This document shows positions 2,110 to 19,312 of a stretch of 64,000 bases of DNA, piece by piece. Source of the DNA: an uncultured Bacilli bacterium (GTDB taxonomy: Bacteria > Bacillota_I > Bacilli_A > RF39 > UBA660); NCBI GenBank assembly GCA_910587065.1, contig CAJUMA010000001.1, positions 82,221 through 146,220 on the forward strand. Reading direction: 5' to 3'. Positions within the stretch are counted from its first letter, which is position 1. Each line of letters starts with the position of its first letter. The position numbers were made by a program, and so were the translations under genes. A model generated the notes under the pieces. The model did no database searches. It worked only from the letters and a program-made list of their open reading frames with translations, and had not been told where the DNA came from.

Positions 2110-2436
2110 TTAATTCTCATAAAACACATCATCTAACTCTGAAAAATTAATAATAAGCTTTTTTTTACTTGAGAATGCATTTATCAAAGGAAGTTTTTTT
2201 TGTTCTTCATTTAACTCTTCAAAAATATGACCCTGAATATTTCCTTTTTCTTTTATGCTAATAAACGACGAGCATTTATTACATTTCATTACATTGTAAT
2301 TTTCAATCCTTCCATTTAATCGCTTTACTCGCAAAATACAATGAATACTAAAATCACATTTATGTTTAATATCGAAGGTTTTATCTTTATACATTGTTTC
2401 TTTTTTTAATATCTTTCTTAAACCTAAATTTCCCAT
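2110..2436 (-). CDS. hypothetical Cys-containing small protein
   Basis: 108-aa ORF with HKCDF...CNKCSS Cys pairs, possibly a zinc ribbon. Coding potential only. Confidence 0.3.
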   Translation of the reverse strand: MGNLGLRKILKKETMYKDKTFDIKHKCDFSIHCILRVKRLNGRIENYNVMKCNKCSSFISIKEKGNIQGHIFEELNEEQKKLPLINAFSSKKKLIINFSELDDVFYEN

Positions 2437-2445
2437 AACACCATT

Positions 2446-3438: not shown

Positions 3439-3486
3439 TTACCTTCCAAAATTAAACAAATAATTGTTTTTCTTTTAATATAATTT

Positions 3487-3840
3487 TTAAAGCTTTTGTT
3501 TAGCTGTGCTTACTATCTCACCAGTTCCCATCGACCACATTTCTTGTTCCATACTAGATAGTTCTTCGATAGGTAAATAGCCATTCCCATAATACGCTCT
3601 TCTTTGTAATTCAAAATACATATCACATAAAGAAGAATCCCTATCTTTTAAGGCTAATTTTGCTAATAAAAGTGAAAAGTTGCTATATTCTTCTTCCGTA
3701 AAAGGTAAAGCATTTATTTGTTCTTTAGATCTAGTTTCAAGATTAGATTCATTATCTAAATCCCAACCACGTTCTTCATATTTTTCCTTTACTACATCAG
3801 CTGTAGTACGATTATTTAAATTTACAGGTTGAAGTTGCAA
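3487..3840 (-). CDS. hypothetical protein
   Basis: 117-aa charged ORF. Its start abuts the 5'-truncated ABC transporter remnant. Confidence 0.35.
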   Translation of the reverse strand: MQLQPVNLNNRTTADVVKEKYEERGWDLDNESNLETRSKEQINALPFTEEEYSNFSLLLAKLALKDRDSSLCDMYFELQRRAYYGNGYLPIEELSSMEQEMWSMGTGEIVSTAKQKL

Positions 3841-5268
3841 GAAGTATTATTGACTTAGAAACAATAGAAATAGACCAAAATTCATCTGGCGTATTTATTG
3901 ACAGACTAAGTCAAGATACATCAAATATTGCAGAAGTATTTAGAACAATTTTTAAAAGATTAAATATAATTATTACTAATGTAGGTATACTATTTGCTGT
4001 ATTTACCATTAATAAACTAATCTTTTGATATTTTGTAATTGCTTTATTTATTATGTTTAATTTTGAAAGAATGTATTTAATCAAACATTTTGAAAGACAA
4101 AAATCTTTTAAAAAAATAAAGGAAGCTAACACAGGATTAGTATCTGAACTTGTTCGCGGCATTAGAGACATTAAAGTATTAAATTGTTATTCGGATTTTG
4201 AAAATAAAATTTATAATAAACTTAAAAAAGCGAATAAGCTTCAATATCAAATGTCCGAAACTACTAAAAGATATGAGTTGTTACGAGAATTTTTAAAGAA
4301 TTTCTTCAACTATATTTTTATTTTACTTGGTATATATCTAGTAATTAAAGGAAATTTACTTGCATCTAGTTTTGTTATTCTTTTTATGTATAGCGATAAG
4401 ATCTTCGACTTTTTGGTTACCATTATTGATTTATTAGAAGTATTAAAAGATTTTAATTTATCTTCCGAAAGAGTATTTGAAATCATTGATGGCAAATATA
4501 AAAAAGAAGAATTTGGTACTCAAATTGTTAAAAGTTTAAACGGTGATTTTAAATTTAAAAATGTAAATTTTGGATATAGAAAAGATCATATGGTTATTAA
4601 GAATATGAATTTAGAAATACCAGCTTTTAAGACCACGGCCATCGTAGGTGAAAGTGGAGCCGGTAAAACTTCTGTTTTTAATATGATCACAAAATTATAC
4701 AGAATAAACAGTGGTAAAATCACGATTGATGGTATAGATATGGATGAACTTACAGAAGAAAGTTTACGAGGAAATATTTCATTAATTACCCAAAACCCAT
4801 ATATTTTTAATTTTTCGGTTAAAGAAAATTTTCAAATTGTTAAAAAAAATGTAACCATGAAAGAAATAGAAGAAGTTTGTAAAAAAGCATGTATTCATGA
4901 TTATATCATGTCTCTTCCAGAAAAGTATGATACACAACTAGGAGAAGGAGGAGTAACTCTTTCAGGTGGGTAAAGACAAAGAATTGCAATTGCTAGGGCA
5001 TTACTTACAGATACAAAAATAATACTTTTTGATGAAGCAACTTCTGCTCTAGACAACGAAACTCAACAAAATATAACAAAAGCAATAAACAATTTACAAG
5101 GGAACTATACTATTATTATCATTGCTCACAGATTATCTACAATAAAAGAAAGTGATCAAATTGTAGTTATGAAAGAAGGAAAAGTAGTAGGTGTTGATAC
5201 CCATAAAAATCTTCTTCAAAATAATCAATATTATCAAAAATTATATGCCAACGATATGAAAAGATAAT
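3841..5268 (+). pseudogene. ABC exporter (fused permease-ATPase, MsbA/LmrA-type) pseudogene: 5'-truncated with two in-frame stops
   Basis: Translation begins inside the transmembrane domain (...IEIDQNSSGVFIDRLSQDTSNIAEVF...), so the first ~110 aa are absent. In-frame TGA at ~4036-4038 inside the hydrophobic segment INKLIF*YFVIALFIMF. Walker A GESGAGKTS is present. Signature reads LSGG*RQRIAIARA, with TAA at 4973 replacing the Gln codon of LSGGQ. Walker B ILFDEATSALD and H-loop IIIAHRLST follow in the same frame to the stop at 5268. Confidence 0.75.
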
Positions 5269-7116: not shown

Positions 7117-7638
7117 TTAACGAGGATAACCAACATACATCATTCCTTTTCCTAAAATACCTCCAATACCATTCTTTCCATACTTAGTCTTACTAAGTAG
7201 TTCTTTTATGTCGATTTGTTTGTCTCTCTCTGTTAAAGAAATATTAACAGCGATAACTGCTGGATCTAAAGCATGAATATTTACTCTTTTAGGACTAGAT
7301 GCAAAATTTGCTCCACTTTTAATTAAATCTTCATAATCACTTTGACACGCTCCGGCAATAATCACGAGTTTCTCATGTGATTTTTCAAATTCACGAGCTT
7401 TTATAATTGTATCCCTAAAATATTTCGAATTTTTATAATTGTTAATATTAGACACATCGCCAGTTTTTGAATCATAAGCATCATGTCCAGTTATAACTAA
7501 AATATCTGGTCTTGTATCATTTAACAATTTAGTTATTTGATTTGGCATATCTGACTCTTGAATTTTTTTACCAATTGCTAAACAATCACATTCTTTATAA
7601 AAATCTAAAGACTTATTTAAATAATCTACATCACCATC
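7117..7638 (-). CDS. yabG: sporulation protease YabG (peptidase U57), C-terminal fragment of a gene split by an intervening element
   Basis: RPDILVITGHDAY...NYKNSKYFRDTI...LVIIAGACQSDYEDLIKSGANFASSPKRVNIHALDP matches the B. subtilis YabG C-terminal half. Homology continues 30 codons upstream of the first Met (DGDVDYLNKSLDFYKECDCLAIGKKIQESD) with no start codon, then ends at a TAA at the element boundary. Confidence 0.75.
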   Translation of the reverse strand, partial: DGDVDYLNKSLDFYKECDCLAIGKKIQESDMPNQITKLLNDTRPDILVITGHDAYDSKTGDVSNINNYKNSKYFRDTIIKAREFEKSHEKLVIIAGACQSDYEDLIKSGANFASSPKRVNIHALDPAVIAVNISLTERDKQIDIKELLSKTKYGKNGIGGILGKGMMYVGYPR

Positions 7639-7724
7639 TGCTGTCTTTTTTTATGTAACAATTTTTTTAAAAATAAAGATTTATTATACTTTTTATGCTA
7701 TAATAACTTAAAGAAGGTGTTAGT

Positions 7725-8714
7725 GTGACTAAAATAAAGGAGTTTGTCGAAGATAATAAGCCTATTGCTATACTTTCAATTCTTACATTTATCGCGTTTA
7801 TTATCGGAATTGTTATATGTTTTGGAACAGACAATAAACATATTAATAAAGAAAAAAAGGTATTAGAAGAAAATTCCTATACTATGTATTATAAAGAAGA
7901 TGCAATTGTTAAATTTACCTTTAGAGAAAGTTTTTATAAATGTGGGAATTCTGTTTGTAGTGAGTACACTGAAAGAATCTCTAACTTTGAACTAGTTAAT
8001 GAACAAGCAAAAAACTTATATTCTAATGTTAACATAAAAAATAAAGATCTTGATGAGGCTGTTGGTATTTTAATTAACGAAGCAAAAAACAAAAGCCATA
8101 TCGTTCAATCACTTCAATTAATAGGTGATTGGAAATCACGTTACAATGAAGAAGAATTTAAGATATTACTAAAAGATCATCTTACAGAAATTCCAAATTT
8201 CCCAATTGCTTTTGAATATCGAGAACAAGTAGATGACCAAACGGTGATGGAAACAATTGCTAAAAAAACTTATACTGTAACTTTTGATAGTAATTTTGGT
8301 TCACCTGTAGACCCTCAAATTATAACCGAAAACGAATTAGCTGTCGAACCACTTGCACCTACAAGAGAAGGATATGACTTTGTTAGATGGCAATTTAATA
8401 GCAGACCATACAGTTTTGAAACTCCTGTTACAAAAGATATAACTTTAAAAGCATCATGGAAGAAAAAACCAACAGTATCAACAATACAAACAACTACTAA
8501 AAAAACCACCACTGCAAAGCCCGCTGGTGATACTGAAAAACCAAATACGGGAGATAATAATAAACCTGAAACAGAAAATCCAAATAAGCCAGAGACTCCA
8601 AGTCCAGGTGACAATAATCCACCAACTGAACCTGAAAAGCCTGTTGAAAAGCCTGATGAGCCTAGTAAGCCTGATGATAATAAGGGTGAAGAAAACCAAG
8701 GAACAACTGAATAA
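7725..8714 (+). CDS. membrane-anchored protein with Listeria-Bacteroides repeat (Flg_new) domain and Pro/Thr-rich C-terminus
   Basis: GTG start with RBS GAAGGTG. N-terminal TM (IAILSILTFIAFIIGIVICFG). TYTVTFDSNFGSPVDPQIITENELAVEPLAPTREGYDFVRWQFNSRPYSFETPVTKDITLKASW fits the Flg_new/Listeria-Bacteroides repeat. PxxP-rich tail. Extended -10 TGcTATAAT upstream. Hairpin terminator at 8714-8738. Confidence 0.6.
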   Translation: MTKIKEFVEDNKPIAILSILTFIAFIIGIVICFGTDNKHINKEKKVLEENSYTMYYKEDAIVKFTFRESFYKCGNSVCSEYTERISNFELVNEQAKNLYSNVNIKNKDLDEAVGILINEAKNKSHIVQSLQLIGDWKSRYNEEEFKILLKDHLTEIPNFPIAFEYREQVDDQTVMETIAKKTYTVTFDSNFGSPVDPQIITENELAVEPLAPTREGYDFVRWQFNSRPYSFETPVTKDITLKASWKKKPTVSTIQTTTKKTTTAKPAGDTEKPNTGDNNKPETENPNKPETPSPGDNNPPTEPEKPVEKPDEPSKPDDNKGEENQGTTE

Positions 8715-8738
8715 AAGGACTAATAAGTCCTTTTTTTA
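8714..8738. terminator. bidirectional hairpin terminator
   Basis: AAGGACTAATAAGTCCTTTTTTT between convergent genes. Confidence 0.5.
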
Positions 8739-10139
8739 ATGAAAACTATACTTTACTATAATTTGTTCATCAATGTATATACTTTCAACAAGTTCTTTTT
8801 TAACTAACTTGTCTATAGAATTTTTATACAAGATATCAATATCATCCATCTTAAAGTTAGTAACATTATCAAACATTTTCAGCAAAGTCTTTTTCTTATT
8901 GTCTATTGATTTTTTTACTTTTTTAAAGTCTTGTTGTGTTATTTCACCACTATAATTCTTTATATAGGCTTCTTTTAATTTTAAATCATTAACTCTAATT
9001 TTTTCCCTAATACTATCTTTTATTGATTCTATATAACATTTGATTTTAGAAAAACAGTTGTTAATAACCATCCGTTTATCAACATCTGCAACTAAATTAC
9101 TAATATTTTCATCAATAGCTACTAATATTTTTTTTAAAATAATACTTTTTAAACATTTAGAACATTTAAAATAATACTCTAGTTTATTATTTTTATGCTT
9201 TTGATAGCATCTCATATAATTACCACACTTGTTACAAAATACTTTGTTCTCAAACATTACTTTTTCTTTTGCTTTTCTATAATTTTTGTATTTCTTTAAT
9301 CTATTATTAACTTGTAAAAATAACTCTTTATCAACAATAGATGGAAAGACATTTTCTATTATCTGATAATCACTTGGTCTAATATATTTTCTTTTTTTAT
9401 CCTTGTAATTATATTTATAAGACTTTCTAACAACTAAATCGCCCTTATACACGGGATTTTCAAGTATTCTACGAACTTTTCTATTATTCCATGTATTTGT
9501 AGCTGTTTTTTTGTTTTTCACCTTTAAATCATCTAATAATATGTTATTTAAATAAACAGCTATATAATTTAAACTATAACCATTAAAATTTAAATTAAAA
9601 ATGTCTTTTACGATACTTGCTTCATTTTCATTTATAGAAAGGGTTCTTAAACCATTAAAATAAAATATATCATAACCAAAAGGAGGATAAGGACCAATAA
9701 ATTCATGGTTCAAAGTTTTATTAATAGCTACATTTCTTCTTTTTAAAGAGGCTTCTTTCACATAGTAATCATTCATGATAGAGTGAATATTAACTAATAC
9801 CCTATTAGTTGTATCCTCATTATTAATAGAAATTAATAGAACATTATGTAACTTAAAATATTCATTTATATAATAACTAGATAAAAAAAGTTCTCTTCCA
9901 AGCCTTGATATATCCTTAACTATCACCGTGGAGATTAGTCCCAATTCTATATCTTTTTTTAATTTTAAAAATGCTTCCCTACTAAAATCAATCCCCGATA
10001 TACCATTATCAACATATATATCATCTAATTTTAAATTATTTGAATTACAATAATCTTTAATTAAACTTATTTGATTACCAATACTATTTCCATTATCTTT
10101 AACCGAAACACGAACATATCCCACAATAAACTTATTCAA
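8736..10139 (-). CDS. large serine recombinase (resolvase/invertase N-domain + recombinase domain + zinc ribbon)
   Basis: Catalytic-Ser motif GYVRVSVKDNG near the N-terminus. DISRLGRE motif. C-terminal Cys pairs CNKCGNYMRC...CSKC. Long coiled-coil tail. Probable TTG start at 10139 preceded by GGAG; the ATG-initiated ORF in the track reaches 10184 and overlaps the upstream gene. Confidence 0.85.
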   Translation of the reverse strand: MNKFIVGYVRVSVKDNGNSIGNQISLIKDYCNSNNLKLDDIYVDNGISGIDFSREAFLKLKKDIELGLISTVIVKDISRLGRELFLSSYYINEYFKLHNVLLISINNEDTTNRVLVNIHSIMNDYYVKEASLKRRNVAINKTLNHEFIGPYPPFGYDIFYFNGLRTLSINENEASIVKDIFNLNFNGYSLNYIAVYLNNILLDDLKVKNKKTATNTWNNRKVRRILENPVYKGDLVVRKSYKYNYKDKKRKYIRPSDYQIIENVFPSIVDKELFLQVNNRLKKYKNYRKAKEKVMFENKVFCNKCGNYMRCYQKHKNNKLEYYFKCSKCLKSIILKKILVAIDENISNLVADVDKRMVINNCFSKIKCYIESIKDSIREKIRVNDLKLKEAYIKNYSGEITQQDFKKVKKSIDNKKKTLLKMFDNVTNFKMDDIDILYKNSIDKLVKKELVESIYIDEQIIVKYSFH

Positions 10140-11634
10140 AATTACTCCTAAATTTATAAAAAATTCTAACCATCTTATGATCATCTATCGTAATCTTTGA
10201 TATCAATCTACCAATAACTTCTTTTTTTTGAATATTTAAACCTTCTTTTATAATTAGGTCGATCGTAGGCACATTGTTTTTAAATATACCCATCATTCGA
10301 CTTTTCTCATCATTAAAATATTCTAAGTCCGAGTTAAGTGAGTTATTTATAATCTCAAAATCGGATTCATCAACTATACCTTCTAATTTATCCTTATACA
10401 ATTGAATTTTCATAGCAGACAGCCTTTTTATTCTAGTATTTATATTATTTAAAACATATTCACGCTTTTCTTTAAAAGTAGCATTAAATATTTTTTTTAC
10501 CAAATTATTTATATCTATATTTTTCATTAACTCAGCCAAATTAGAAAAAAGAATATTATTTAATATTTCCTCTCTAAAATAATGCATTGAACACACATTA
10601 TCACGGTATTTTGCATATGTCCTACAACAATATATACTCGATGATTTTAGTCTCCTTACCAACATGGTTGACGAACACTCATTACAACATACAAACCCTT
10701 TAAGTAAATAATCATATTTTCTTCTTCTTACATGCCCACTTTTTGATAAACTATTGACCAAGTTAAATTGTTCTCTATTTATTATGGGCTGATGATTATT
10801 TTCGATTTTTATCCATTCATCTTCTTTTAACAATCTTTTTCTTTTCGATTTCAAACTAACTCTTTCATATTTTTTTTGAACAAGAGTACCAATATAAACA
10901 ACGTTTTTTAATATATAGCTAACTGTTGCTGGTTTCCAGATTGTACTAAAAAAGGTTTTATTTAAATCTCTATTATTATAAATATTAGGTGGCATTACTT
11001 TTTCATGAGTTAACTTCCTAGCAATTATTGTTGTACTCAAACCCGCTTCTTTCATTGAAAATATCCTTTTTACTATTGAAGACGCATAATCATCTATTTC
11101 TAATATTCGTGAATCTATTAAAGACCTTTTATAGCCATAAGGAACTGTACTTCCGAGAAAATATCCTTTACGCATCAAATCATGTCTTGATGACTTAATC
11201 TTTTTGGATATATCATTTAAATACATATCATTTAAAACAGCTTTAAATGGAATAATATCATCACTCAAAGTTGGAATTAAAGAATCATAATTATCAAGTA
11301 TTGCTATATATCTTATACTATTATCGGGAAAAAATTTATAAATATATTCTCCCGTTCCAATAAAATCTCTTCCAAGCCTTGATATATCCTTTGTTATTAC
11401 ACAGTTTACTAACTCATTTTTTATATCTAAAAGAAGTCTCTTAAATGAAGGCCTATCAAAATTTCCACCCGAATAGCCATCATCAATATAATAATCATAT
11501 ATTTGAATACCTTTATTCAAACAATAATCTCTAATTATATTTTTCTGATTAACTATACTTGTACTAACATTTTCTTCTTTACTCTCAGAAACAGATATTC
11601 TTACATAAACAGCCGCAATATACTTACTCTCCAT
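10132..11634 (-). CDS. large serine recombinase
   Basis: 500 aa. N-terminal AAVYVRISVSES catalytic-Ser motif, DISRLGRD, recombinase domain, CCNECSSTM...CC zinc ribbon/coiled coil. Directly upstream of and co-oriented with the second LSR. Confidence 0.85.
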   Translation of the reverse strand: MESKYIAAVYVRISVSESKEENVSTSIVNQKNIIRDYCLNKGIQIYDYYIDDGYSGGNFDRPSFKRLLLDIKNELVNCVITKDISRLGRDFIGTGEYIYKFFPDNSIRYIAILDNYDSLIPTLSDDIIPFKAVLNDMYLNDISKKIKSSRHDLMRKGYFLGSTVPYGYKRSLIDSRILEIDDYASSIVKRIFSMKEAGLSTTIIARKLTHEKVMPPNIYNNRDLNKTFFSTIWKPATVSYILKNVVYIGTLVQKKYERVSLKSKRKRLLKEDEWIKIENNHQPIINREQFNLVNSLSKSGHVRRRKYDYLLKGFVCCNECSSTMLVRRLKSSSIYCCRTYAKYRDNVCSMHYFREEILNNILFSNLAELMKNIDINNLVKKIFNATFKEKREYVLNNINTRIKRLSAMKIQLYKDKLEGIVDESDFEIINNSLNSDLEYFNDEKSRMMGIFKNNVPTIDLIIKEGLNIQKKEVIGRLISKITIDDHKMVRIFYKFRSNFE

Positions 11635-11752
11635 TTATTTCCTTTAATAGATTTTCTTTAATATAGTCTAATAAGATTTCTTCTATAAGCTCGCTTAAAC
11701 TAGGTCCAGTATCATCAAAAATAGTAATTACTTCATTTTCCTTATTCTTCAT
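11627..11752 (-). CDS. 42-aa ORF translationally coupled to the upstream LSR (possible directionality or regulatory factor)
   Basis: ATG...MKNKENEVITIFDDTGPSLSELIEEILLDYIKENLLKEINGE; its TAA overlaps the ATGGAGAGTAA start of the recombinase. Below the ORF-track size cut-off. Confidence 0.3.
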
Positions 11753-11834
11753 ACATATTCCCTCATAAATAATTTATGAAATAAATTATTTATAAGAACC
11801 AAAAAACCAGCTAGAGTATTCTAACTGGTTTATA

Positions 11835-14800
11835 TTATTTTTTTACATACAATCTTACTAAAATAGCTACGAAGAACAAGAATATTACTAAACAACCTAT
11901 AACAATCTTATAATTAATTCCAAATCTCGAAGTTTCATTATTTTCTTCATCTTGTGTTTCTGGAGCCTTTATTTCAATATGATCAGTTTTCGAAACTGCG
12001 CTAGTTGTTGTAGTTTTATCTTCTTCAGTTTTATTAGTAGTTGTTGTTTGTTTATTTTGACTGTTTGCAGTTGTTGTATTACCAATACCTTTATTAGGAT
12101 TATTAACAATTGTACTTCCGCCATTAATTGGTTTAGAATCAATTGTTGGAATACTTGGTTTTGGATCTACAGGTTCAACTGGTTTTTCTGGTTGAACTGG
12201 ATCAACTGGTTTTTCTGGTTTTTCTGGAACACTAGGATCCACAACGTCCTCGGTTATCCAACTCACAGTCGCTGTTGCAGTTCCTTTGTTTCCAGCCTTA
12301 TCTACAAACTCAAATGTAAATTTGCCATTCTTAGTAAATACATATGTGAACTTGCCATCATTATTTAGCACTGTTACATCTTCATTTGTTTTTAATGTAA
12401 CAATAATACTTTCATAAGTTGGTTTAGTTATTGAATAAGATATTTCTCCAACTGGAGCACTCTTATCTATCCAATCAACTATAGCAACCGCACTTCCTTT
12501 ATTTCCTGCTTTGTCCACAAACTCGAATACAAATTTGCCGTTCTTAGTAAATACATAAGTATTTAAGCCATTATTGTTTAATATTGACACTCCATCTTCA
12601 ATTACTAATGTTGCTGTTACATCTTTGTTTGTTAAATCCTTAACATTATATGTTACTTTGCCTATTGGAGCACTCTTATCAATCCAATTCACAATAGCTT
12701 CGGCAGTTCCTTTGTTTCCAGCTTTATCAACAAACTCAAACACAAATTTACCATTGTCTGTAAATACATAAGTAGTTAAACCGTTATTATTTAGTACTGT
12801 TACATCTTCATTTGTCTTTAATGTAGCAATAACTTGTCCATTTGTAATAGTAGTCAAACTATACTCAACTATTCCAACTGGAGCAACTTTATCAATCCAA
12901 TCCACTTTAGCTGTTATGGTTTCTCTGTTTCCATAAGCATCAGCTATTATAAAATCAAATTTTCCATTCTCCTTGAAAGTATAAGTATTTAAACCACCAT
13001 TATTTATGATTCTAACACCTTCACCTACTTCTAATGTTACTATTACATCTTTGTTTGTAGCAGAGGATTCGCTATAGACTAATTTACCAAACAGATTTGG
13101 GTTGACAATCCAATCCACTTTAGCTTTAACGCTTCCCTTATTTCCTGCTTTGTCCACAAACTCAAATGTAAATTCTCCATTTTGAGTAAATGTATATTTT
13201 AGTGAACCACCATTATTAGTTATTGTAACATCTTTATCAACACTTAATGTTGCTGTTACAGGACCTTCGGTTTTTTCACTTATGTCATATGTTATTTTTC
13301 CTTTTGGAGCAACCTTATCTATCCAGTTAACAGTTGCTACTGCAGTTCCTTTATTTCCTGCATTATCTACAAATTCAAATGTAAATTCGCCATTATTTGT
13401 AAATGTGTATGTTCTAGAACCATTATTATTAGTAATTGTAATTCCATCCCCAACATTTAATGTTGCTATTACATCTTTATTTGTTAAACTTGTAATATTA
13501 TAACTTATCGTTCCAACTGGAGCTTTCTTGTTTATCCAATCTACTTTTGCAGTTGCAGTTCCTTTGTTTCCAGCTACATCGACAAACTCAAAAGTGAATT
13601 CTCCGTTTTCACTAAACCTATATGTTTTTAATCCACCATTGTTTGTAACAGTTACCCCATCCGCAACGGTAAGGGTTGCTACTACATCCTTATTTGTTAG
13701 AATTGTTATATCATAACTTATCGTTCCAACTGGAGCATTCTTGTTTATCCAATCTACTTTTGCTGTTATACTTCCTGTATTTCCAGCTAAATCTCTAAAC
13801 TCAAAAGTGAATTCTCCATTTTCACTAAATACATATTTTGTTGAACCATTATTATTTGTTACTATTGTTTCTTCATTAGTAATTAATGTAACTTCAACAT
13901 TCTTATTTGTTATATCTTTTGTGCTATATACTAAAGAACCTTTAGGTGCAACTCTATCAATCCAATTAACTGTTGCTGTAGTTGTTCCTCTATTACCAGT
14001 GGCATCAACAAATTCAAACGTAAACGATCCATTATTATTAAATGTATATGTTTTAGAACCGTTATTATTTGTTACTGTTACGCCTGCTGCTACATTAAGT
14101 GTTGTAACAACATTTTTATTTGTTGGAGTTGTTATATCATAAGTTACATTTCCTGATGGAGCCTTCTTATTTATCCAAGTAACGTTTGCAGTTGCTCTTC
14201 CTGTATTTCCAGCTTCATCGACAAATTCAAATGTAAATTCGCCGTTTTCTGTAAATATATATGTTTTCTTACCATCATTATTTGTTACTGTTACTTCTTC
14301 GCTTGGAATTAATGTTACAATAACATCTTCATTTGTTATATCTCTTGTTCCATATTCAATTGTTCCAGTTGGAGCAATCTTATCTATCCAAGTAACAGAT
14401 GAATTAATTGTACCAGTATTTCCAACTTCATCAGTATATTCGAACACGAAAGTTCCATTTTCATTAAATGTATAAGTTTTACTTCCATTATTGTTTGTTA
14501 CTGTTATTTCTTTATCAGAAATTAATGTAGCAGTAACGGAAGTATTTGTCTTATTAGTAGTACTATATTCAATACTTACATGTGGAGCAACTTGACTACG
14601 ATCTTCATATAAGTTAATCATAGCTGCTGATGCAAATATATCATATGTATCAACTTCAAATTTTACATATTGTCCATATACGCTTTCATCAAATGTTATT
14701 TTTCTCATTTCATTATCTTGTGGACAATTCTCAATGCTTCCTGCTAAGTTCCAGTCTTCACCATCTAAACTTACAAATACTCGAGCATTTTTGATAAAGT

Positions 14801-17800
14801 CTGGGTCAACACTCCTATATTTCTTTTGAATAAATTCAAGAGCTGAAATATATCTTGGAGCATCTAATTTAATTGTAACAAATGGTTTTACAGTTTGAGT
14901 CAATACTGAATATCTAAAATCAGTATGCCATAAAGTGTTTGGATTTCCATCAATTACATTAGGAGCATAGAAAGGTCTAGAAGAATCAATTGATTGAGTA
15001 GAATAACCATGTATTGATAAATGCTTAATAGGAATATATTTTTCTGTATCAGGTTGATTATCTTCTGTAAATTCATACTCTAATACATTACTTGCAACTG
15101 AAGTTGAAGTTGCTTTATTTCTTAATTGAAGTACTCTATCACCAGTAACTACTGGCTCTACATCAGAATAAGATGTCCACTCAGTAGTATCTGAATATTT
15201 CCATTCAAGTTTCGACACATCACCTAAGGCAATAAGTCTATTTTCTAAATCATTAACATAAGGATCAAGCGTTAATTCATCTGCTTCCTTAATTTTTATA
15301 GAATATTCAGTTTCATCTCCACTTAATTTTATTTTTATTCCATTTTCTGGAGAAATTTTATTAAGAGTCTCTTTTGATAATTGTGCATTATTACCAGTAA
15401 CAGTAATCCATGTAGCACCACCATCAACTGAATATTTCCATTCATTAGTATAATCTGAATCATTTAAAACTATCTTACCAGCATTATTTCCATCAAATGA
15501 GAAACTTGCAACAACCTTAACTGTTTTATTCTCATAAAAGTTAAACATAGCACCTGCTATAAAACTCATACTTGCGCTTACAGCTTGAGTCTTTTTACCA
15601 ACAATTTTAATATATTGCCCTCTTACAGGTTCAAAATCAATTGTTTTTACAGAAACATCGTTTGTATTTCTATAAGTCCAATCTGTTTCAGCTGCTTCAG
15701 TATAGTTTATTCCATCCATACTAACTAATATTTGCGCTTTTTCAATTTTTCCATTACCACCAGCTAAAGGATAATAATCCATAGCAGTTATATTTTTTGG
15801 TTCATCTAATTTAATAACTATTTCTTTTTTTCTATCGCTACCATCCCAAGCTGAGTGCCAATTTGTATGTATATTACCATCTATAATATTTCTAGCATGT
15901 CGCCCTTGTCCTGTAGCTTCTGATGAAACACTATTAATAGAAAGATGAGAAATTGATATATATTTTCTAGTATCTGGTTGAACATTATTAGTAAAATGAT
16001 ATGTAACTGAATTTGTATCAGCTAAATACAACCCTGTTGCTCCAGCTTTAACAATTACATCTCTATCTCCAGATAAATCTGGTTCCTCATCTTTATAATA
16101 AGTCCAATCATCCGTTTCATTATATTTCCATAACATTGTTGGAACAGAAGCAATTAATTTATCCTCTAAATCGTTAGCATATAAATTTCTAGGTAATCCT
16201 GCAGAATTTAATATGTCGATTTTATATAAATTTTCTTCCGAATAATTTACTCCAACTATATGAATATAAATATCATTTTCTGCTGTTATACTAGCAATTT
16301 GTTCTTGAGTTAATTCAAGTTCATGAGCTTCTTCACCTGTGAATGAAACTTCATTCCAAGTATTCTTTCCATCTAAACTATAATCCCATCTAATTCCGCT
16401 TCCATCAAATCTCTTTGATAGGACAATTTTATTTGCTTTGTCTCCATCAAACGAGAATGTCGCTAAAGTAGAATCAAATTGACCTAAAAGATATGATGCT
16501 TCAACTCTAGTAACTCCAGGTTGTAATACATCTGTACCTTGATAATTCTTTGCTCTAGTTAATGTATCAGTAACTAATAAAGAATATTTAAATTGATAAG
16601 CATTTGATGTAAATTTAGGTTTTAGTAGGGAAGATAGTTGATAGAATGGCAAAGGATATTCTAAGAAACTATCACTTAATTCTTCAACTAAGTTGAAATA
16701 ATCTTCTTCAGTTTTAGTTGAATCATTATTGTATAATTCAATTAATTTATACCAAGCATCAACATTAAAATCTAACGCTGATATGGAAGCACGAAGATAT
16801 TCTTCATACTTGCTTGTATTATCCTTATAACTATTCGCTATCATTAGTAACTCACTAGATCTTTGATAATCAGCAAATCTATTTACGGCTTCTTGAGCCA
16901 TTACCATATAAGGAATTGTATAACCAGTTGCATATCTTCTATCATTTCCCCATCCAAGAAGCATTCTTTCACCCTTCTCAGATAAAGTCCATCCACTAAC
17001 ATCATTATCAATTCCCCAGTAACCTTGTCCATTTGTATTTTGTGAATAATATAAAAGTGCAGCATGTCCAGGTTGACCAATTACGGTTGCAGGAATACCA
17101 TGAGTAGCACGAATATTTGAACCAGACTTAGAGATACCTCCACAAACAGCACCTGTTCCAAATTTATTTCTAAAGTTCATCCACACTTTATAAAGTTTAT
17201 AATCGTTTGTTCCTCTAGTAACCTTGATAGTATATTCTGGACTGTCCTTTCCACCTGGAATGGTGTAAGTCAAATCCCATAATCCAATTTTCTCATCTGG
17301 ATTTTCTTTGTTTGGAACTGCAAATAATTCGTTGAAATAATCTTTGTTAGCTTCATCATAATATACACTATTTCCATAATTTGGCCATACATATGCCATA
17401 TATGGATGTGGTGTCAAAAGAGATCCAACACTACCAGGAGCTGCATCAATTCTTGATTGTACGTAATCATTAAGCCATAAAATTGATTCATCATCTATTA
17501 AGTTATTCATAACAAAACGCATTGTTTCAATTGGTAGCGACTCAAACATTGGTGTCATATCGACACTGTCTGTAGCCTTAAATCTACCATTTTTATGCAT
17601 AAACTTATAAATAGCATATCTAACTACTGCATCCGATTGATTTTCTGTCGAATTTTGCATCCATAATCTTACTGTTCCTGAATGAGTTAAAGAAAGTGAG
17701 AGAGCCATCTTTTTATAAAGATCTCCATAAGTTAGTGTGGCATCCCATTTATTATTAAGAAGTGTATTATTGCTAAAATCTTCTTTATAGTTATAATATA

Positions 17801-18791
17801 ATCTATTTAATTCTACTATAGATTTATAATAGCTTCCATCAGGTTTTCCACCCATAACATATAATCTCAAATTTTCTAAATCAGTCATTAACCATTTGAT
17901 TGTTTCATTATACGAAGAATTAAATGTTGCCATATTTTGCAATAAATCATATGTTGCATTATTAACAAAATCTCTTTGTAACACTATTAATTCTTGTTCA
18001 TTTGTTAAGTTAGATGATGGAAAATTTTTAATCATCTCATCATACTGCTCAACTGTTTTTATGTAATCCACTGTGTTTGAAGGCTCTTCATATCCAGCTT
18101 TTATAAGTTTTGCATCCGCTAAAACTGAATGATCATTACTTTCATTTCCACAATTTTGAATTACAAATTTAATGTATTTTACATCTTTAACAGGATATTT
18201 AAGGAAAAAAGCATCCCTATCTCCTTTAAATACCGCATTATTGTTGACTCTTTCTCTAAGAGTCCAAGTCTCGCCATCATCCGATGTGTGAATTTCGAAT
18301 CTAACACCATTACCTGCTGAGCCAACGCTTGCGTCAACTCCTAAATAAGCTGTTAGATAGTCATAGTCGTATCCACTAAGGTCATAAGCAACGGTTGCAT
18401 TTGCATGTGCTAAAATACCTTTCATAAACATTTTTCGTCTACCATCAACATTAACAGTAATTAACCCTCCGGATAAATTCTTGTCTAATTGAATCGTACT
18501 ATAAGATGTATATGATATTCCAGGCATATAAGGAATATCAGAAAGGTAAACCATATCCGTGGCGTTAGCTTTCGCTTGTGCATTAGTATCTTCAGCCTCT
18601 GTTGAATTTAAGTTAAATTGATTTTCAATCTCACTTTCATTAGCCAAAGTGCTTGTATTTCTATTCATTAGAACACTCATATTTGAGAGGCTAGGCCCCA
18701 GAGTTACAAGTGTTAAAAGTATTACAGATAATACAATCGTACTAATTATGTCGTGCTTATATCCTTTGGATCGTAAACACTTAAATTTCAT
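11835..18791 (-). CDS. giant (2318 aa) multidomain surface protein: signal/TM - NPCBM - transglutaminase-like core - 2x F5/8 type C (discoidin) - 11 tandem ~71-aa repeats - Pro/Thr stalk - C-terminal TM anchor
   Basis: N-terminal hydrophobic segment. Residues ~80-232 VYLSDIPYMPGISYTSY...GILAHANATVAYDLSGYDYDYLTAYLGVDASVGS...DHSVLADAKL match the NPCBM/NEW2 domain. Residues ~540-600 GTGAVCGGISKSGSNIRATHGIPATVIGQPGHAALLYY...GIDND match the transglutaminase core (Cys-His-Asp). IDGNIHTNWHSAWDG and IDGNPNTLWHTDF mark discoidin domains. Repeats VTVTNNNGSKTYTFxENGxFTFEFVDxAGNKGTAxAxVxWIDKxAPxGxIxY x11. PEKPEKPVDPVQPEKPVEP and a T-rich linker. C-terminal IVIGCLVIFLFFVAILVRLYVKK with no LPXTG. Confidence 0.85.
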   Translation of the reverse strand: MKFKCLRSKGYKHDIISTIVLSVILLTLVTLGPSLSNMSVLMNRNTSTLANESEIENQFNLNSTEAEDTNAQAKANATDMVYLSDIPYMPGISYTSYSTIQLDKNLSGGLITVNVDGRRKMFMKGILAHANATVAYDLSGYDYDYLTAYLGVDASVGSAGNGVRFEIHTSDDGETWTLRERVNNNAVFKGDRDAFFLKYPVKDVKYIKFVIQNCGNESNDHSVLADAKLIKAGYEEPSNTVDYIKTVEQYDEMIKNFPSSNLTNEQELIVLQRDFVNNATYDLLQNMATFNSSYNETIKWLMTDLENLRLYVMGGKPDGSYYKSIVELNRLYYNYKEDFSNNTLLNNKWDATLTYGDLYKKMALSLSLTHSGTVRLWMQNSTENQSDAVVRYAIYKFMHKNGRFKATDSVDMTPMFESLPIETMRFVMNNLIDDESILWLNDYVQSRIDAAPGSVGSLLTPHPYMAYVWPNYGNSVYYDEANKDYFNELFAVPNKENPDEKIGLWDLTYTIPGGKDSPEYTIKVTRGTNDYKLYKVWMNFRNKFGTGAVCGGISKSGSNIRATHGIPATVIGQPGHAALLYYSQNTNGQGYWGIDNDVSGWTLSEKGERMLLGWGNDRRYATGYTIPYMVMAQEAVNRFADYQRSSELLMIANSYKDNTSKYEEYLRASISALDFNVDAWYKLIELYNNDSTKTEEDYFNLVEELSDSFLEYPLPFYQLSSLLKPKFTSNAYQFKYSLLVTDTLTRAKNYQGTDVLQPGVTRVEASYLLGQFDSTLATFSFDGDKANKIVLSKRFDGSGIRWDYSLDGKNTWNEVSFTGEEAHELELTQEQIASITAENDIYIHIVGVNYSEENLYKIDILNSAGLPRNLYANDLEDKLIASVPTMLWKYNETDDWTYYKDEEPDLSGDRDVIVKAGATGLYLADTNSVTYHFTNNVQPDTRKYISISHLSINSVSSEATGQGRHARNIIDGNIHTNWHSAWDGSDRKKEIVIKLDEPKNITAMDYYPLAGGNGKIEKAQILVSMDGINYTEAAETDWTYRNTNDVSVKTIDFEPVRGQYIKIVGKKTQAVSASMSFIAGAMFNFYENKTVKVVASFSFDGNNAGKIVLNDSDYTNEWKYSVDGGATWITVTGNNAQLSKETLNKISPENGIKIKLSGDETEYSIKIKEADELTLDPYVNDLENRLIALGDVSKLEWKYSDTTEWTSYSDVEPVVTGDRVLQLRNKATSTSVASNVLEYEFTEDNQPDTEKYIPIKHLSIHGYSTQSIDSSRPFYAPNVIDGNPNTLWHTDFRYSVLTQTVKPFVTIKLDAPRYISALEFIQKKYRSVDPDFIKNARVFVSLDGEDWNLAGSIENCPQDNEMRKITFDESVYGQYVKFEVDTYDIFASAAMINLYEDRSQVAPHVSIEYSTTNKTNTSVTATLISDKEITVTNNNGSKTYTFNENGTFVFEYTDEVGNTGTINSSVTWIDKIAPTGTIEYGTRDITNEDVIVTLIPSEEVTVTNNDGKKTYIFTENGEFTFEFVDEAGNTGRATANVTWINKKAPSGNVTYDITTPTNKNVVTTLNVAAGVTVTNNNGSKTYTFNNNGSFTFEFVDATGNRGTTTATVNWIDRVAPKGSLVYSTKDITNKNVEVTLITNEETIVTNNNGSTKYVFSENGEFTFEFRDLAGNTGSITAKVDWINKNAPVGTISYDITILTNKDVVATLTVADGVTVTNNGGLKTYRFSENGEFTFEFVDVAGNKGTATAKVDWINKKAPVGTISYNITSLTNKDVIATLNVGDGITITNNNGSRTYTFTNNGEFTFEFVDNAGNKGTAVATVNWIDKVAPKGKITYDISEKTEGPVTATLSVDKDVTITNNGGSLKYTFTQNGEFTFEFVDKAGNKGSVKAKVDWIVNPNLFGKLVYSESSATNKDVIVTLEVGEGVRIINNGGLNTYTFKENGKFDFIIADAYGNRETITAKVDWIDKVAPVGIVEYSLTTITNGQVIATLKTNEDVTVLNNNGLTTYVFTDNGKFVFEFVDKAGNKGTAEAIVNWIDKSAPIGKVTYNVKDLTNKDVTATLVIEDGVSILNNNGLNTYVFTKNGKFVFEFVDKAGNKGSAVAIVDWIDKSAPVGEISYSITKPTYESIIVTLKTNEDVTVLNNDGKFTYVFTKNGKFTFEFVDKAGNKGTATATVSWITEDVVDPSVPEKPEKPVDPVQPEKPVEPVDPKPSIPTIDSKPINGGSTIVNNPNKGIGNTTTANSQNKQTTTTNKTEEDKTTTTSAVSKTDHIEIKAPETQDEENNETSRFGINYKIVIGCLVIFLFFVAILVRLYVKK
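12254..14594. repeat. 11 tandem ~213-bp coding repeats inside the giant protein gene
   Basis: Periodic near-identical protein units VTVTNNxGxKTYxF...WIDKxAP... The repeated DNA also produces the spurious antisense ORFs at 12574-14142 in the track. Confidence 0.8.
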
Positions 18792-19065
18792 TTCATAATC
18801 CCCCCATTTATCGAAATTTAGAGCATATTATAGCACATTTTTCGATAAATGCAAGTTTTTCCACTCTCCTTTCTTATAAATTATATTCATCTATATAAAA
18901 TAGTGACTAATTCTAAATTATCACTATTTTATACCAAATATTAAATTGTTTAAAAACTATTCTTTTTATCTATATATATTAAACCATATTTTAGCATTAA
19001 AGTAAATATTCACATGAGATTTAAAAGGTACAAATATATACATATTATTACATAAAAAAAGGCAG

Positions 19066-19312
19066 CATCAATATGAAGAATTTTACCAGGGAGATAAAAA
19101 TACTCATCTCGGTCCAATAATTCATTGCTTATTTCTGGACGATAATCATCAACTCTCTCAGCAATAGTCAAATCATCTAAATTAGCATCAGCATAAAGTC
19201 TCACATCAGCCCCCTTTAAGTAAGCTACATCATCTTTAATATCAACCACTATAAAAACAACATCATTGTTATAACTATTTCTAGTAACAATAGAGCCTTT
19301 TTCTATTTTCAT
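19066..19312 (-). CDS. yabG: sporulation protease YabG, N-terminal fragment (split gene)
   Basis: MKIEKGSIVTRNSYNNDVVFIVVDIKDDVAYLKGADVRLYADANLDDL...DEYFYLPGKILHID aligns with B. subtilis YabG residues 1-~115 (MQFQIGDMVARKSYQMDVLFRIIG...HMPGKVLHLD). Homology stops at HID; the remaining 16 codons of the tracked ORF (AAFFYVIICIYLYLLNLM*) are element-derived. Confidence 0.75.

What the first reader, a model, noticed from the sequence alone, without database searches (positions are those of the whole stretch)
8736..11752. Two tandem, co-oriented large serine recombinases plus a 42-aa translationally coupled ORF
Both LSRs (500 aa and ~468 aa) retain the catalytic YVRxS serine motif, the recombinase domain and a zinc ribbon. 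The 42-aa ORF MKNKENEVITIFDDTGPSLSELIEEILLDYIKENLLKEINGE ends inside the ATG of the first LSR. The second LSR appears to start at TTG with its own GGAG RBS directly after the first LSR's stop. Paired LSRs recall CcrA/CcrB-type two-recombinase systems, where both are needed for excision. The small ORF could be a directionality or regulatory factor.
Basis: partly seen in the sequence, partly recalled or inferred. Interest (0 to 1): 0.6.

Follow-up and report, generated by a model that had tools for sequence, protein, structure and literature searches.

The report
Paired-recombinase cassette splitting sporulation gene yabG
The two recombinase genes and the tiny gene before them are the cut-and-paste machinery of an 11.4-kb mobile cassette sitting inside the spore-coat protease gene yabG, and related cassettes turn up in about fifty gut bacterial species although only one such case (one strain) is described in the papers I could search.

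Summary
On the minus strand lie a 42-aa ORF (11752-11624), LSR1 (500 aa, 11634-10132) and LSR2 (467 aa, TTG at 10139, to 8736). Each gene overlaps the next, by 11 and 8 nt.

The trio lies inside an 11,431-bp insert (7637-19067) that splits the sporulation peptidase gene yabG at the Asp codon of ILHIDGD. The insert ends in 31-nt inverted arms around a GA dinucleotide. Joining the halves at GA gives an in-frame 254-aa YabG that passes the NCBIfam equivalog cutoff and matches an intact yabG in a relative with the same gene order.

The same module, small ORF then LSR1 then LSR2, lies in yabG at the same codon in about 45-50 species-level genomes, mostly gut metagenome-assembled genomes (MAGs). Cargo differs completely between them. 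In 44 compared pairs:
- both LSRs keep their catalytic residues;
- they diverge together (r = 0.95);
- they have moved between hosts as one unit.

A conserved CATA-type promoter, unlike sigma-A promoters, precedes the module.

Most likely this is a skin/yin-like intervening element, excised in the mother cell by a two-subunit LSR, with the small protein as directionality factor. Excision, the need for both LSRs and the small protein's role are inferred, not shown. It is not a CcrA/CcrB family member.

The parts
7637..19067 (-). The whole intervening cassette, 11,431 bp, counted with one copy of the GA crossover dinucleotide
   Evidence: The yabG halves flank it. The longest inverted repeat in the region marks its two ends (I1). 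A relative with the same gene order has an uninterrupted yabG (L094).
19068..19312 (-). yabG 5' part: ATG at 19312, ends ...GKILHID, with the GA crossover at 19069-19068
   Evidence: The translation is. Gene callers mark it PF05582. It is under purifying selection (omega 0.09-0.13).
19037..19067 (.). Element arm P' at the yabG-N junction (TGCTGCCTTTTTTTATGTAATAA... reading outward)
   Evidence: It is the inverted-repeat partner of 7639-7669, 31 nt and 84% complementary. The family consensus is TGCTGA......TTAAGTAAC.
11835..18791 (-). Cargo: 2318-aa membrane-anchored surface protein (NPCBM, F5/8 type C, Ig-like repeats) with a sigma-A-like promoter upstream
   Evidence: Pfam matches are. The upstream sequence TTGCAT-N17-TATAAT was read. 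Other family members carry unrelated cargo at this position.
11804..11831 (-). Intrinsic terminator that ends the cargo gene, just upstream of the module's promoter
   Evidence: 12-pair stem followed by a T run.
11770..11799 (-). Conserved promoter-like element of the module: GTTCTTA (11799-11793), 14-nt spacer, CATAAATTA (11778-11770)
   Evidence: A CATA motif lies 18-45 nt upstream of the small ORF in 46 of 50 family loci, against 15% expected. The consensus is tTCATTAAAT-N11-TTCATAaatTTaAa. No sigma-70-type site is predicted here.
11624..11752 (-). 42-aa acidic small protein, first gene of the module and a candidate directionality or accessory factor
   Evidence: Homologues lie 0-100 nt upstream of LSR1 in nearly all family loci (E from 1e-19 to 4e-7). 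Apart from a second copy in L035, nothing else in the six-frame translations scores. AF2 predicts a helix at 19-39 with an extended N-terminus. No Pfam or PHROG family fits.
10132..11634 (-). LSR1, 500-aa large serine recombinase
   Evidence: Pfam Resolvase, Recombinase and Zn ribbon all match. Y10, R12 and S14 are conserved. Its clade is nested among single LSRs from other elements.
8736..10139 (-). LSR2, 467-aa large serine recombinase; its TTG start overlaps the end of LSR1 by 8 nt
   Evidence: Pfam Resolvase and Recombinase match. Y8, R10, S12 and KD.SRLGR are at least 95% conserved in 44 orthologues. It forms a deep separate clade.
7725..8714 (+). Cargo: 329-aa membrane protein (RsgI-like middle domain, Listeria-Bacteroides repeat, Pro-rich tail), opposite strand, between LSR2 and the element end
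   Evidence: Pfam matches are. It occurs only in the window's clade; in most of the family yabG-C follows LSR2 within 13-550 nt.
7637..7669 (.). GA crossover (7638-7637) plus element arm P at the yabG-C junction
   Evidence: The family consensus is GTTACTTAA-N-GTCAGCA|GA.
7117..7636 (-). yabG 3' part (…GDVDYLNKSL… to the stop), which carries the ITGHD and GACQSDYE motifs
   Evidence: The rebuilt protein scores 273.1 bits against TIGR02855 (cutoff 270.4). Omega is 0.02-0.06.

Best explanation
The 42-aa ORF, LSR1 and LSR2 form one operon. It is the recombination module of an 11.4-kb cassette with no recognised phage or conjugation genes, inserted in the coding sequence of the sporulation protease gene yabG.

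Shown from sequence:
- The insert sits at the GAT (Asp) codon of the YabG motif ILHIDGD.
- It is bounded by inverted arms around a central GA dinucleotide.
- Recombination at GA would rebuild an intact, in-frame yabG and release a circle carrying a near-palindromic attP.
- The three-gene module and this exact target site are conserved in about 45-50 species-level genomes, while the cargo is unrelated between them.
- The module has moved between distant hosts as a unit.

Inferred:
- In vegetative cells yabG stays split, and the cargo (here a giant surface protein and a second envelope protein) is expressed from sigma-A-like promoters.
- During sporulation the module is transcribed from its conserved CATA-type promoter, which resembles mother-cell sigma-E/sigma-K promoters.
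- The recombinases then excise the cassette in the terminally differentiated mother cell, and yabG is expressed from its own sigma-K-like promoter.
- The forespore keeps the cassette.

Inferred with less confidence:
- LSR1 and LSR2 act together as a hetero-oligomer because the target is asymmetric. Three of the four half-sites (P, P', B') share one motif, and the fourth (B, in yabG-N) is unrelated.
- The small acidic protein is the directionality factor that permits attL x attR excision.
For: **Split gene and junctions**
- The halves are read. Joining them at the shared GATG gives a 254-aa protein.
- That protein scores PF05582 E = 2.9e-87 and TIGR02855 273.1 bits against a cutoff of 270.4.
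- Terminal inverted repeat I1 is 31 nt and 84% complementary.
- The empty site L094 keeps the order ksgA-yabG-spoVG-yabP-divIC and reads ...GKILHIDGDIDYL.

**Family**
- LSR1 homologues of 39-94% identity are followed by LSR2 and then yabG-C.
- The junction consensus is CATATTGA|TGCTGAC..TTAAGTAAC and GTTACTTAA..GTCAGCA|GATGGTGAT.
- GA is the only dinucleotide shared at both junctions in L012, L029 and L035.

**Both LSRs look functional and linked**
- Catalytic residues are conserved in 44 orthologue pairs.
- Omega is 0.09-0.39 for LSR1 and 0.12-0.54 for LSR2.
- Pairwise identities correlate at r = 0.95 and the two trees mirror each other.

**Split yabG is still needed**
- Omega is 0.02-0.13 for the two halves.
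- No intact YabG above 80% identity exists in a 5.8-billion-protein database.

**Mobility**
- L027 and L029 share LSR1 at 95% and LSR2 at 90% identity, but their YabG-C is only 61% identical. dS is 0.2 for the LSRs and 1.0 for yabG.

**Promoter**
- The conserved motif is described. A terminator lies just upstream of it and no sigma-70 site is predicted there.

**Half-site asymmetry (matches out of 24)**
- P against P' 13.7, P against B' 10.8, and B against anything 5-7, which is chance level.

**Precedent**
- The yin prophage in yabG of C. botulinum V73 excises and circularises during growth and sporulation (PMC10747680).
- GirC with GirX, and SprA with SprB, are LSR plus small directionality-factor pairs (PMC5595907; PMC5499854).
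Against: - No excised circle or rebuilt junction was observed. attP patterns found nothing in the metagenome or viral contig collections.
- attP is nearly symmetric, which a homodimer could read. One LSR might therefore suffice.
- In the gin element, a two-LSR operon (girAB) is dispensable for the sporulation rearrangement.
- The promoter assignment rests on resemblance to consensus sequences recalled from B. subtilis and was not calibrated in this organism.
- The small protein has no detectable similarity to any known directionality factor. It is truncated to a 15-codon remnant in L016.
- dS is saturated for many pairs, so omega values are approximate.
- The organisms are uncultured MAGs. Sporulation is inferred only from their genes.
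Confidence: 0.68

Rival explanations
1. One LSR, most likely LSR1 together with the small protein as its directionality factor, does all the yabG integration and excision. LSR2 has a separate job, such as resolving multimers, fusing cassettes or mediating transfer-related integration, as suggested for girAB in the gin element.
For: attP is nearly palindromic, as expected for a homodimer. The LSR1 clade is nested among single-LSR elements, and weak small-ORF homologues sit upstream of LSR1-like genes with no detected partner in L088 and L070, both short contigs. girAB is dispensable in gin.
Against: LSR2 is directly downstream of LSR1 in the 44 non-redundant loci where both genes could be reconstructed, usually overlapping its stop codon. 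It keeps its catalytic residues, co-diverges with LSR1 at r = 0.95 and co-transfers with it. No second pair of recombination sites was found inside the element. The B half-site is unrelated to the other three.
Confidence: 0.22
2. The cassette is an immobile relic. yabG is a pseudogene in these streamlined gut bacteria, and the recombinase genes are decaying or serve nothing.
For: No excision product was found in public assemblies. The element appears fixed in the window's clade. Some Erysipelotrichia lack yabG altogether (bioRxiv 2022.02.25.481979).
Against: Both yabG halves are under strong purifying selection (omega 0.02-0.13) and still join in frame. All three module genes are intact and constrained in 44 species. 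There is recent horizontal transfer, and a non-coding promoter motif is conserved.
Confidence: 0.05
3. The two LSRs belong to two different elements nested or abutted in yabG, each with its own sites.
For: yabG can be hit twice. L024 carries a second, single-LSR insert further along yabG, and L068 has a single-LSR insert at another codon.
Against: The LSR1-LSR2 overlap and order are conserved across the family. Only one pair of terminal arms exists. The two trees mirror each other.
Confidence: 0.03

Closest known systems
yin element of Clostridium botulinum V73 (Douillard et al. 2023, PMC10747680)
   Same: It interrupts the same gene, yabG, and is bounded by repeats containing an inverted repeat. 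It encodes a large serine recombinase. It excises as a circle and restores yabG, increasingly so during sporulation.
   Different: yin is a predicted functional prophage with one LSR and a separate 72-aa candidate directionality factor, known from a single strain. Its authors reported no other yabG-disrupting element in public genomes. The element here carries no recognised phage genes in the cargo surveyed, is 5-13 kb, has two coupled LSRs plus a roughly 40-aa ORF, and occurs in about 45-50 species.
skin elements in sigK: SpoIVCA in B. subtilis; CD1231 with directionality factor CD1234 in C. difficile (PMC5025042)
   Same: A mother-cell sporulation gene is split by an element whose LSR gene lies next to the 3' gene fragment. 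Excision is developmentally controlled and needs a small acidic directionality factor.
   Different: The target gene differs, there is a single LSR, and the elements derive from prophages. SpoIVCA-type and these LSRs are only distantly related; the NCBIfam best hits are sub-threshold CcrB and XisF.
gin element in gerE of Bacillus cereus (Abe et al. 2017, PMC5595907)
   Same: It is a non-phage intervening element in a sporulation gene and carries more than one LSR, including a two-gene LSR operon (girAB). Excision needs an LSR plus a small factor, GirX.
   Different: In gin the operon pair girAB is not expressed and is dispensable, and a third, distant LSR (GirC) does the work. Here the pair is the only recombinase present and lies at the element end next to the target.
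SCC / SCCmec cassettes with CcrA and CcrB (PMC11470126; Misiura et al. 2013, recalled from memory)
   Same: Small cassettes with no self-transfer genes recognised, interchangeable cargo and a conserved operon of two different LSRs, all aimed at one conserved chromosomal gene. The pair excises and circularises the cassette.
   Different: SCC inserts at the 3' end of rlmH without inactivating it and is not tied to development. CcrAB is reported to need no directionality factor. The proteins here are not CcrA/CcrB orthologues and come with a conserved small ORF.
SPbeta SprA/SprB in spsM of B. subtilis (PMC4191935, PMC5499854)
   Same: An LSR plus a small directionality factor rebuild a sporulation gene in the mother cell. 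The SPbeta integrase is among the nearest solved full-length structures by sequence for LSR1 (E = 1e-12).
   Different: SPbeta is an active 134-kb prophage with a single LSR, and its directionality-factor gene is separately regulated.

Membership tests
Large serine recombinases (LSR) | N-terminal resolvase catalytic domain with the nucleophilic Ser in a Y-x-R-x-S context | tested here: met
   PF00239 matches both proteins. Y10/R12/S14 in LSR1 and Y8/R10/S12 in LSR2 are conserved across orthologues.
Large serine recombinases (LSR) | Recombinase domain followed by a zinc-ribbon domain with a C-terminal extension | tested here: met
   PF07508 matches both. PF13408 passes in LSR1 (34.9 bits) and is sub-threshold in LSR2 (16.8 bits), which keeps the invariant C302, C305, C326 and C329.
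CcrA/CcrB cassette chromosome recombinases | Sequence membership: NCBIfam equivalog models NF047343 (CcrB), CcrA and CcrC | tested here: not met
   CcrB scores 95.2 and 66.5 bits against a cutoff of 900. CcrC scores 70 bits. No CcrA hit appears at E < 0.01.
CcrA/CcrB cassette chromosome recombinases | Two different LSRs in one operon, both required for excision and integration | tested here: inconclusive
   The operon, translational coupling and strict co-conservation are met. The requirement for both cannot be tested by computation.
CcrA/CcrB cassette chromosome recombinases | Integration at the 3' end of rlmH (orfX) | tested here: not met
   The target is the middle of yabG.
Sporulation gene-intervening elements (skin, SPbeta, vfbin, gin, yin) | The element interrupts the coding sequence of a mother-cell-expressed sporulation gene | tested here: met
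   yabG is split after codon 81. The rebuilt protein passes TIGR02855. Mother-cell, sigma-K expression of yabG is taken from B. subtilis literature as quoted in PMC10747680.
Sporulation gene-intervening elements (skin, SPbeta, vfbin, gin, yin) | An element-encoded serine recombinase and short att sites allow precise, in-frame reconstitution | tested here: met
   There are terminal inverted arms, a shared GA core and an in-frame join identical to the intact orthologue in L094.
Sporulation gene-intervening elements (skin, SPbeta, vfbin, gin, yin) | Excision occurs during sporulation, in the mother cell | not testable with these tools
   Only indirect support exists: a conserved CATA-type promoter, purifying selection on the split halves, and no junction sequences in public contigs.
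Sporulation gene-intervening elements (skin, SPbeta, vfbin, gin, yin) | A small recombination directionality factor is needed for excision | tested here: inconclusive
   A conserved 34-48-aa acidic ORF sits upstream of LSR1. It resembles no known directionality factor. A complex prediction could not be run.
yin element (same element as in C. botulinum V73) | Prophage gene content with a single LSR | tested here: not met
   No phage genes appear in the window's cargo or in the ten family cargos surveyed. There are two LSRs. The nearest phage-record LSR is 34% identical or less.

The most novel reading that the evidence does not exclude
This is a natural two-subunit large serine recombinase in which the subunits divide up DNA recognition. 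One paralogue reads the P-type half-sites (P, P' and B', TG[C/G]TGA…TTAAGTAA). The other reads the unrelated B half-site inside yabG-N. A roughly 40-aa acidic protein, co-translated with them, switches the complex to excision. The whole unit is a portable, developmentally timed gene switch that has carried dozens of different cargos into one sporulation gene across gut Bacillota. If so, paired LSRs are a general way to target asymmetric, protein-coding sequences. That would also explain the many uncharacterised tandem LSR pairs at the ends of other gut mobile elements (for example L138/L139, L076, L084).
Probability: 0.3. Interest if true: 0.78.

Novelty: new variant of a known kind. Interest (0 to 1): 0.64.

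Why it matters
Split sporulation genes that are rebuilt by excision are a classic case of programmed DNA rearrangement. Known examples use a single recombinase and are mostly defective prophages. For yabG the only published case is one prophage in one strain, described as unique.

This window shows something different. A whole family of small cassettes with no recognised phage genes hits the same codon of yabG in about fifty species-level genomes, mostly gut MAGs. All carry the same three-gene module.

That gives a natural comparative data set in which att sites, both recombinases and the candidate directionality factor vary together. It can be used to ask:
- why some large serine recombinases come in obligate pairs, a question answered so far only for CcrAB of SCCmec;
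- how such pairs read asymmetric targets.

It also suggests that spore-coat maturation in common gut spore-formers depends on a mobile element. Finally, it offers new recombinase, att-site and accessory-factor sets for genome engineering.

Tried and rejected
- **Nested or abutting elements.** Rejected. The order and overlap of the two LSRs are conserved, and there is a single pair of terminal arms.
- **A second internal pair of recombination sites** (an invertible or excisable segment served by LSR2). The inverted-repeat scan and an arm-motif search found nothing above chance: 10 matches against 7.7 expected.
- **CcrA/CcrB, CcrC or XisF membership.** All scores are far below the cutoffs.
- **Phage origin.** The best phage-record LSR is 34% identical or less, and the cargo holds no phage genes. 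Four IMG/VR contigs with family members are short chromosomal fragments, not circles.
- **Direct evidence of excision.** Two attP patterns (one window-specific, one for the family) against metagenome contigs and one against viral contigs gave 0 hits.
- **Intact yabG from the window's own species.** None above 80% identity.
- **Family assignment for the small ORF.** There was only a sub-threshold RHH_1 hit in 2 of 10 members and no PHROG.
- **Structure of the small ORF from a family alignment.** The single-sequence model gives only one helix.
- **Domain-wise conservation** as a way to tell which LSR reads which half-site. Not informative.
- **Misiura et al. 2013 on CcrAB.** The paper is not held, so details of CcrAB half-site recognition are from memory only.
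Full report
**1. The observation**

On the minus strand the window carries three ORFs:
- a 42-aa ORF at 11752-11624;
- a 500-aa ORF at 11634-10132 (LSR1);
- an open frame from 10184 to 8736 (LSR2).

Both long proteins match Pfam Resolvase and Recombinase. LSR1 also passes the recombinase zinc-ribbon model. LSR2 misses that cutoff (16.8 against 25.3 bits) but keeps CxxC...CxxC. They are 28% identical to each other over their full length.

That TTG (10139, preceded by AGGAG) lies 8 nt before the end of LSR1. The small ORF overlaps the start of LSR1 by 11 nt. The three genes are therefore chained by overlaps. The description is confirmed with these small corrections.

**2.

The ORF at 19321-19010 encodes the N-terminal third of the sporulation peptidase YabG. 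It ends '...YFYLPGKILHIDA' and then runs into unrelated sequence. The frame upstream of the ORF at 7548-7117 reads '...ADGDVDYLNKSL...ITGHD...' to the normal YabG C-terminus.

Both junctions contain GATG. Joining them there gives an in-frame 254-aa protein. It matches Peptidase_U57 at E = 2.9e-87 and passes the NCBIfam equivalog model for YabG, 273.1 bits against a cutoff of 270.4.

The longest inverted repeat in the region, 31 nt and 84% complementary, lies exactly at the two junctions, 7639-7669 and 19037-19067. The excised circle would carry a 42-bp near-palindrome, TTACATAAAAAAAGACAGCA-GA-TGCTGCCTTTTTTTATGTAA. The insert is 11,431 bp (7637-19067).

A related MAG labelled Erysipelotrichales has an uninterrupted yabG in the same order, ksgA-yabG-spoVG-yabP-divIC. 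It reads GKILHIDGDIDYL across the predicted join (L094).

The rest of the window is ordinary chromosome near the replication origin. It holds dnaA, dnaN, gyrB and gyrA, and the GC skew changes sign at about 44-45 kb.

**3. A family, not a one-off**

The identical element is on record in mouse-gut assemblies. LSR1 homologues at 72, 55, 54, 51 and 50% identity sit in the same arrangement:

yabG-N | cargo | 38-42-aa ORF | LSR1 | LSR2 | yabG-C

A scan of one genome per species with an LSR1 alignment returned 80 loci. These are the tblastn survey results:
- In the 44 non-redundant loci with LSR1 identity of 39% or more where both genes could be reconstructed, an LSR2 orthologue lies directly downstream. 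The gap is -29 to +10 nt, mostly -8, -4 or +1, with one exception (L061, 145 nt).
- The 3' part of yabG follows 13-1650 nt after LSR2.
- Exceptions are contig ends, L044 and one degenerate locus (L016).
- Below about 37% identity the link to yabG disappears.

The junction sequences are conserved across the family: CATATTGA|TGCTGAC-N6-TTAAGTAAC at the N side and GTTACTTAA-N6-GTCAGCA|GATGGTGAT at the C side. The insertion is always at the Asp codon of ILHIDGD. In L012, L029 and L035 the only dinucleotide common to both junctions is GA. This fits the 2-bp crossover of serine recombinases.

Element sizes are about 5-13 kb. The cargo is unrelated between members and includes surface proteins, an AAA ATPase, kinases and acetyltransferases, ABC transporters, a toxin-antitoxin pair and a RelA/SpoT-like protein. 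No phage or conjugation genes were recognised.

**4. Are all three genes real and constrained?**

*The small ORF.* An HMM built from ten small ORFs was run against the six-frame translation of every locus. It finds a homologue on the same strand, 0-100 nt upstream of LSR1, in nearly all family loci (E from 1e-19 to 4e-7). The only other strong hit is a second copy in L035, and the next best scores have E > 0.4. The proteins are 34-48 aa and acidic, with the pattern hydrophobic-x-(I/V)(F/Y)D(D/E)...L-x-x-(K/L)I-x-E-x-(F/L)-x-x-Y. AF2 predicts an extended N-terminus and a confident helix at 19-39. No Pfam or PHROG family fits.

*The two LSRs.* Among 44 non-redundant orthologue pairs, LSR1 keeps Y10/R12/S14 and KD.SRLGR, and LSR2 keeps Y8/R10/S12 and KD.SRLGR.

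*Selection.* dS is often saturated, so these omega values are approximate:

| Gene | omega |
|---|---|
| yabG halves | 0.02-0.13 |
| LSR1 | 0.09-0.39 |
| LSR2 | 0.12-0.54 |

*Linkage.* Pairwise identities of LSR1 and LSR2 across species correlate at r = 0.94-0.95. In a neighbour-joining tree the two clades have mirrored topologies. LSR2 forms a deep lineage of its own, and LSR1 nests among single LSRs of other elements. The pair is therefore old, co-inherited and not a recent duplication.

**5. Mobile or fixed?**

Both occur.
- *Mobile.* L027 and L029 share LSR1 at 95% and LSR2 at 90% identity, while their YabG-C is 61% identical. dS is about 0.2 for the LSRs and 1.0 for yabG. The module has recently crossed between distant hosts, as one unit.
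- *Fixed.* In the window's own clade every member found carries the element. YabG-C is 88-96% identical across the clade. LSR dS is similar to yabG dS in the one pair (L001-L005) that is not fully saturated. No intact YabG above 80% identity exists in a 5.8-billion-protein collection. This looks like long vertical residence.

**6. Regulation**

A strong intrinsic terminator (11831-11804) ends the cargo gene just before the module. No sigma-70-type site is predicted between it and the small ORF.

Instead a bipartite motif is conserved in non-coding DNA across the family: tTCATTAAAT, about 11 nt, then TTCATAaatTTaAa, about 10 nt before the ribosome-binding site. A CATA lies 18-45 nt upstream of the small ORF in 46 of 50 loci, against 15% expected. 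In the window the motif is GTTCTTA-N14-CATAAATTA (11799-11770).

From my own knowledge of B. subtilis consensus sequences, a -10 element beginning CATA is the mark of the mother-cell sigma factors: sigma-E (kmATATT-N14-CATACAhT) and sigma-K (AC-N17-CATAnnnTA). yabG itself has CATAATATA upstream. The two cargo genes have sigma-A-like promoters, TTGCAT-N17-TATAAT and TGcTATAAT. This supports sporulation-specific expression of the module but does not prove it.

**7. Why two recombinases?**

All four half-sites were read outward from GA. Matches are out of 24 positions:

| Comparison | Matches |
|---|---|
| P against P' (the two element arms) | 13.7 (22 in the window) |
| P against B' (yabG-C arm, TGGTGAT...GATTATTTA) | 10.8 |
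| B (yabG-N arm, AATATGnAAnATTTTACC) against any other arm | 5-7, about chance |

One half-site in four thus has a different sequence. It lies in a strongly conserved coding region that cannot evolve to suit the recombinase. A second subunit with a different specificity would solve that problem.

As I recall it, this is the logic reported for CcrA/CcrB at the asymmetric rlmH site. I could not re-read that paper. The gin paper summarises CcrAB as a two-gene operon able to carry out both integration and excision, and PMC11470126 shows ccrAB driving cassette excision and circularisation.

Several points count against over-reading this:
- attP is nearly symmetric.
- In most members the outer motif is offset by only one base between P and P'.
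- The gin element's girAB pair is dispensable.

I put the hetero-oligomer model at roughly 55% and 'one LSR suffices' at roughly 20-25%.

The small protein as directionality factor is about 45% likely. Its size, charge, position and co-conservation fit SprB, CD1234 and GirX. No similarity or complex model supports the role, and it has decayed in L016.

**8. Comparison with known systems**

- *What it works like:* the sporulation gene-intervening elements skin, SPbeta, gin and especially yin. yin is the only published yabG insert, a prophage with one LSR in one C. botulinum strain. Its authors found no other yabG-disrupting element in public genomes.
- *Its architecture:* a small cassette with interchangeable cargo, a paired-LSR operon and one conserved target gene. 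This is closest to SCC elements.
- *Membership:* both proteins are large serine recombinases. They are not CcrA/CcrB, CcrC or XisF. The nearest solved structures by sequence are the TnpX catalytic domain and the SPbeta integrase.
- *Other pairs:* tandem, overlapping LSR pairs also occur at the ends of unrelated gut elements, in L076, L084, L085, L093 and L138/L139. Pairing is recurrent and largely unstudied.

**9. Verdict**

- The finding is real and more interesting in context than as described.
- It is a new variant of a known kind: a widespread family of cassettes with no recognised phage genes that split yabG and carry a conserved module of small ORF, LSR1 and LSR2.
- The split gene, the sites, the family and the constraint on all three genes are shown from sequence.
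- Excision in the mother cell, the need for both LSRs and the role of the small protein are inferred.
- No excised form was found in the collections I could search.

Noticed in passing
L058:9120-9230, L059:10145-10255, L060:5675-5790, L061:4650-4765, L062:1525-1640: In five species-level genomes the LSR1 orthologue needs a +1 frame change after about codon 70 (…EEIRK|GKINTVITKD…), at CGG AAA AGG AAA. Both frames are otherwise open and conserved over some 420 codons. This is either programmed +1 frameshifting on A_AAA_AGG or a shared inherited lesion.
   Followed up: partly
L024:7482-11189; L068:3143-7877: yabG is hit at other positions too. L024 has a second insert, with a single LSR about 25% identical, near residue 50 of the C-part, in addition to the family cassette. 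L068 (Marinisporobacter MAG) has a roughly 3.8-kb single-LSR insert near residue 118 of the C-part, while its HIDGD site is intact.
   Followed up: no
L017:6386-6820, L044:13200-13592, L096:3786-4229, L097:5957-6340: Some family members carry a third, short serine-recombinase fragment (N-terminal catalytic domain only, about 130-150 aa) directly after LSR2.
   Followed up: no
L016:9575-21548: This is a degenerate family member. The module follows yabG-N after only 403 nt, and the small ORF is cut to 15 codons although its promoter motif is intact. A second GTTAAGTAAC motif lies at about 9743. The 8 kb after LSR2 have no ORF longer than 72 aa under table 11.
   Followed up: partly
L027 and L029 (also L022, L020/L026, L030/L039): The modules are nearly identical (LSR1 up to 95%, LSR2 up to 90% identity) in hosts whose YabG-C is only 58-65% identical. 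This indicates recent horizontal transfer of a cassette with no recognisable transfer genes.
   Followed up: partly
window 19354-20373 (-): A 339-aa gene with no Pfam match sits between ksgA and yabG-N. It is present in the element-bearing relatives (L001, L006, L009) but absent from the empty-site relative L094, where ksgA abuts yabG.
   Followed up: no
L002:16526-20739 versus L001:16662-21503 (window about 700-5000): Two mouse-gut strains with the identical yabG cassette differ just downstream of divIC. One has the window's genes (ABC ATPase and neighbours). The other has an HTH regulator, SSB, a metallo-beta-lactamase-fold/anti-Pycsar-like protein and ClpP, which looks like another mobile element.
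   Followed up: no
L138:8001-11352, L139:8001-11352: Another overlapping pair of LSRs (559 + 559 aa, 8-nt overlap) sits at the edge of a different gut element that carries BREX genes (PglZ, BrxL). The flanks differ beyond the pair in the two contigs. Coupled LSR pairs seem common at element ends.
   Followed up: no
window 11835-18791 (-): The 2318-aa cargo protein has an N-terminal NPCBM domain, two F5/8 type C domains and a long run of roughly 90-aa Ig-like repeats before a C-terminal membrane anchor. Relatives carry 2460-aa versions. Its function is unknown; it may be a glycan-binding adhesin.
   Followed up: no
window about 43000-45500: The chromosomal replication origin region lies in the window. 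dnaA (44496-43138, -) and dnaN, gyrB and gyrA are confirmed by Pfam, and the GC skew changes sign at about 44-45 kb. The yabG cassette therefore lies only about 25-37 kb from the origin.
   Followed up: partly
family att sites: In most family members the outer motif TTAAGTAA starts at position 13 in the arm next to yabG-C but at position 14 in the arm next to yabG-N. This is a conserved 1-nt asymmetry in an otherwise palindromic attP. In the window both are at 13.
   Followed up: partly
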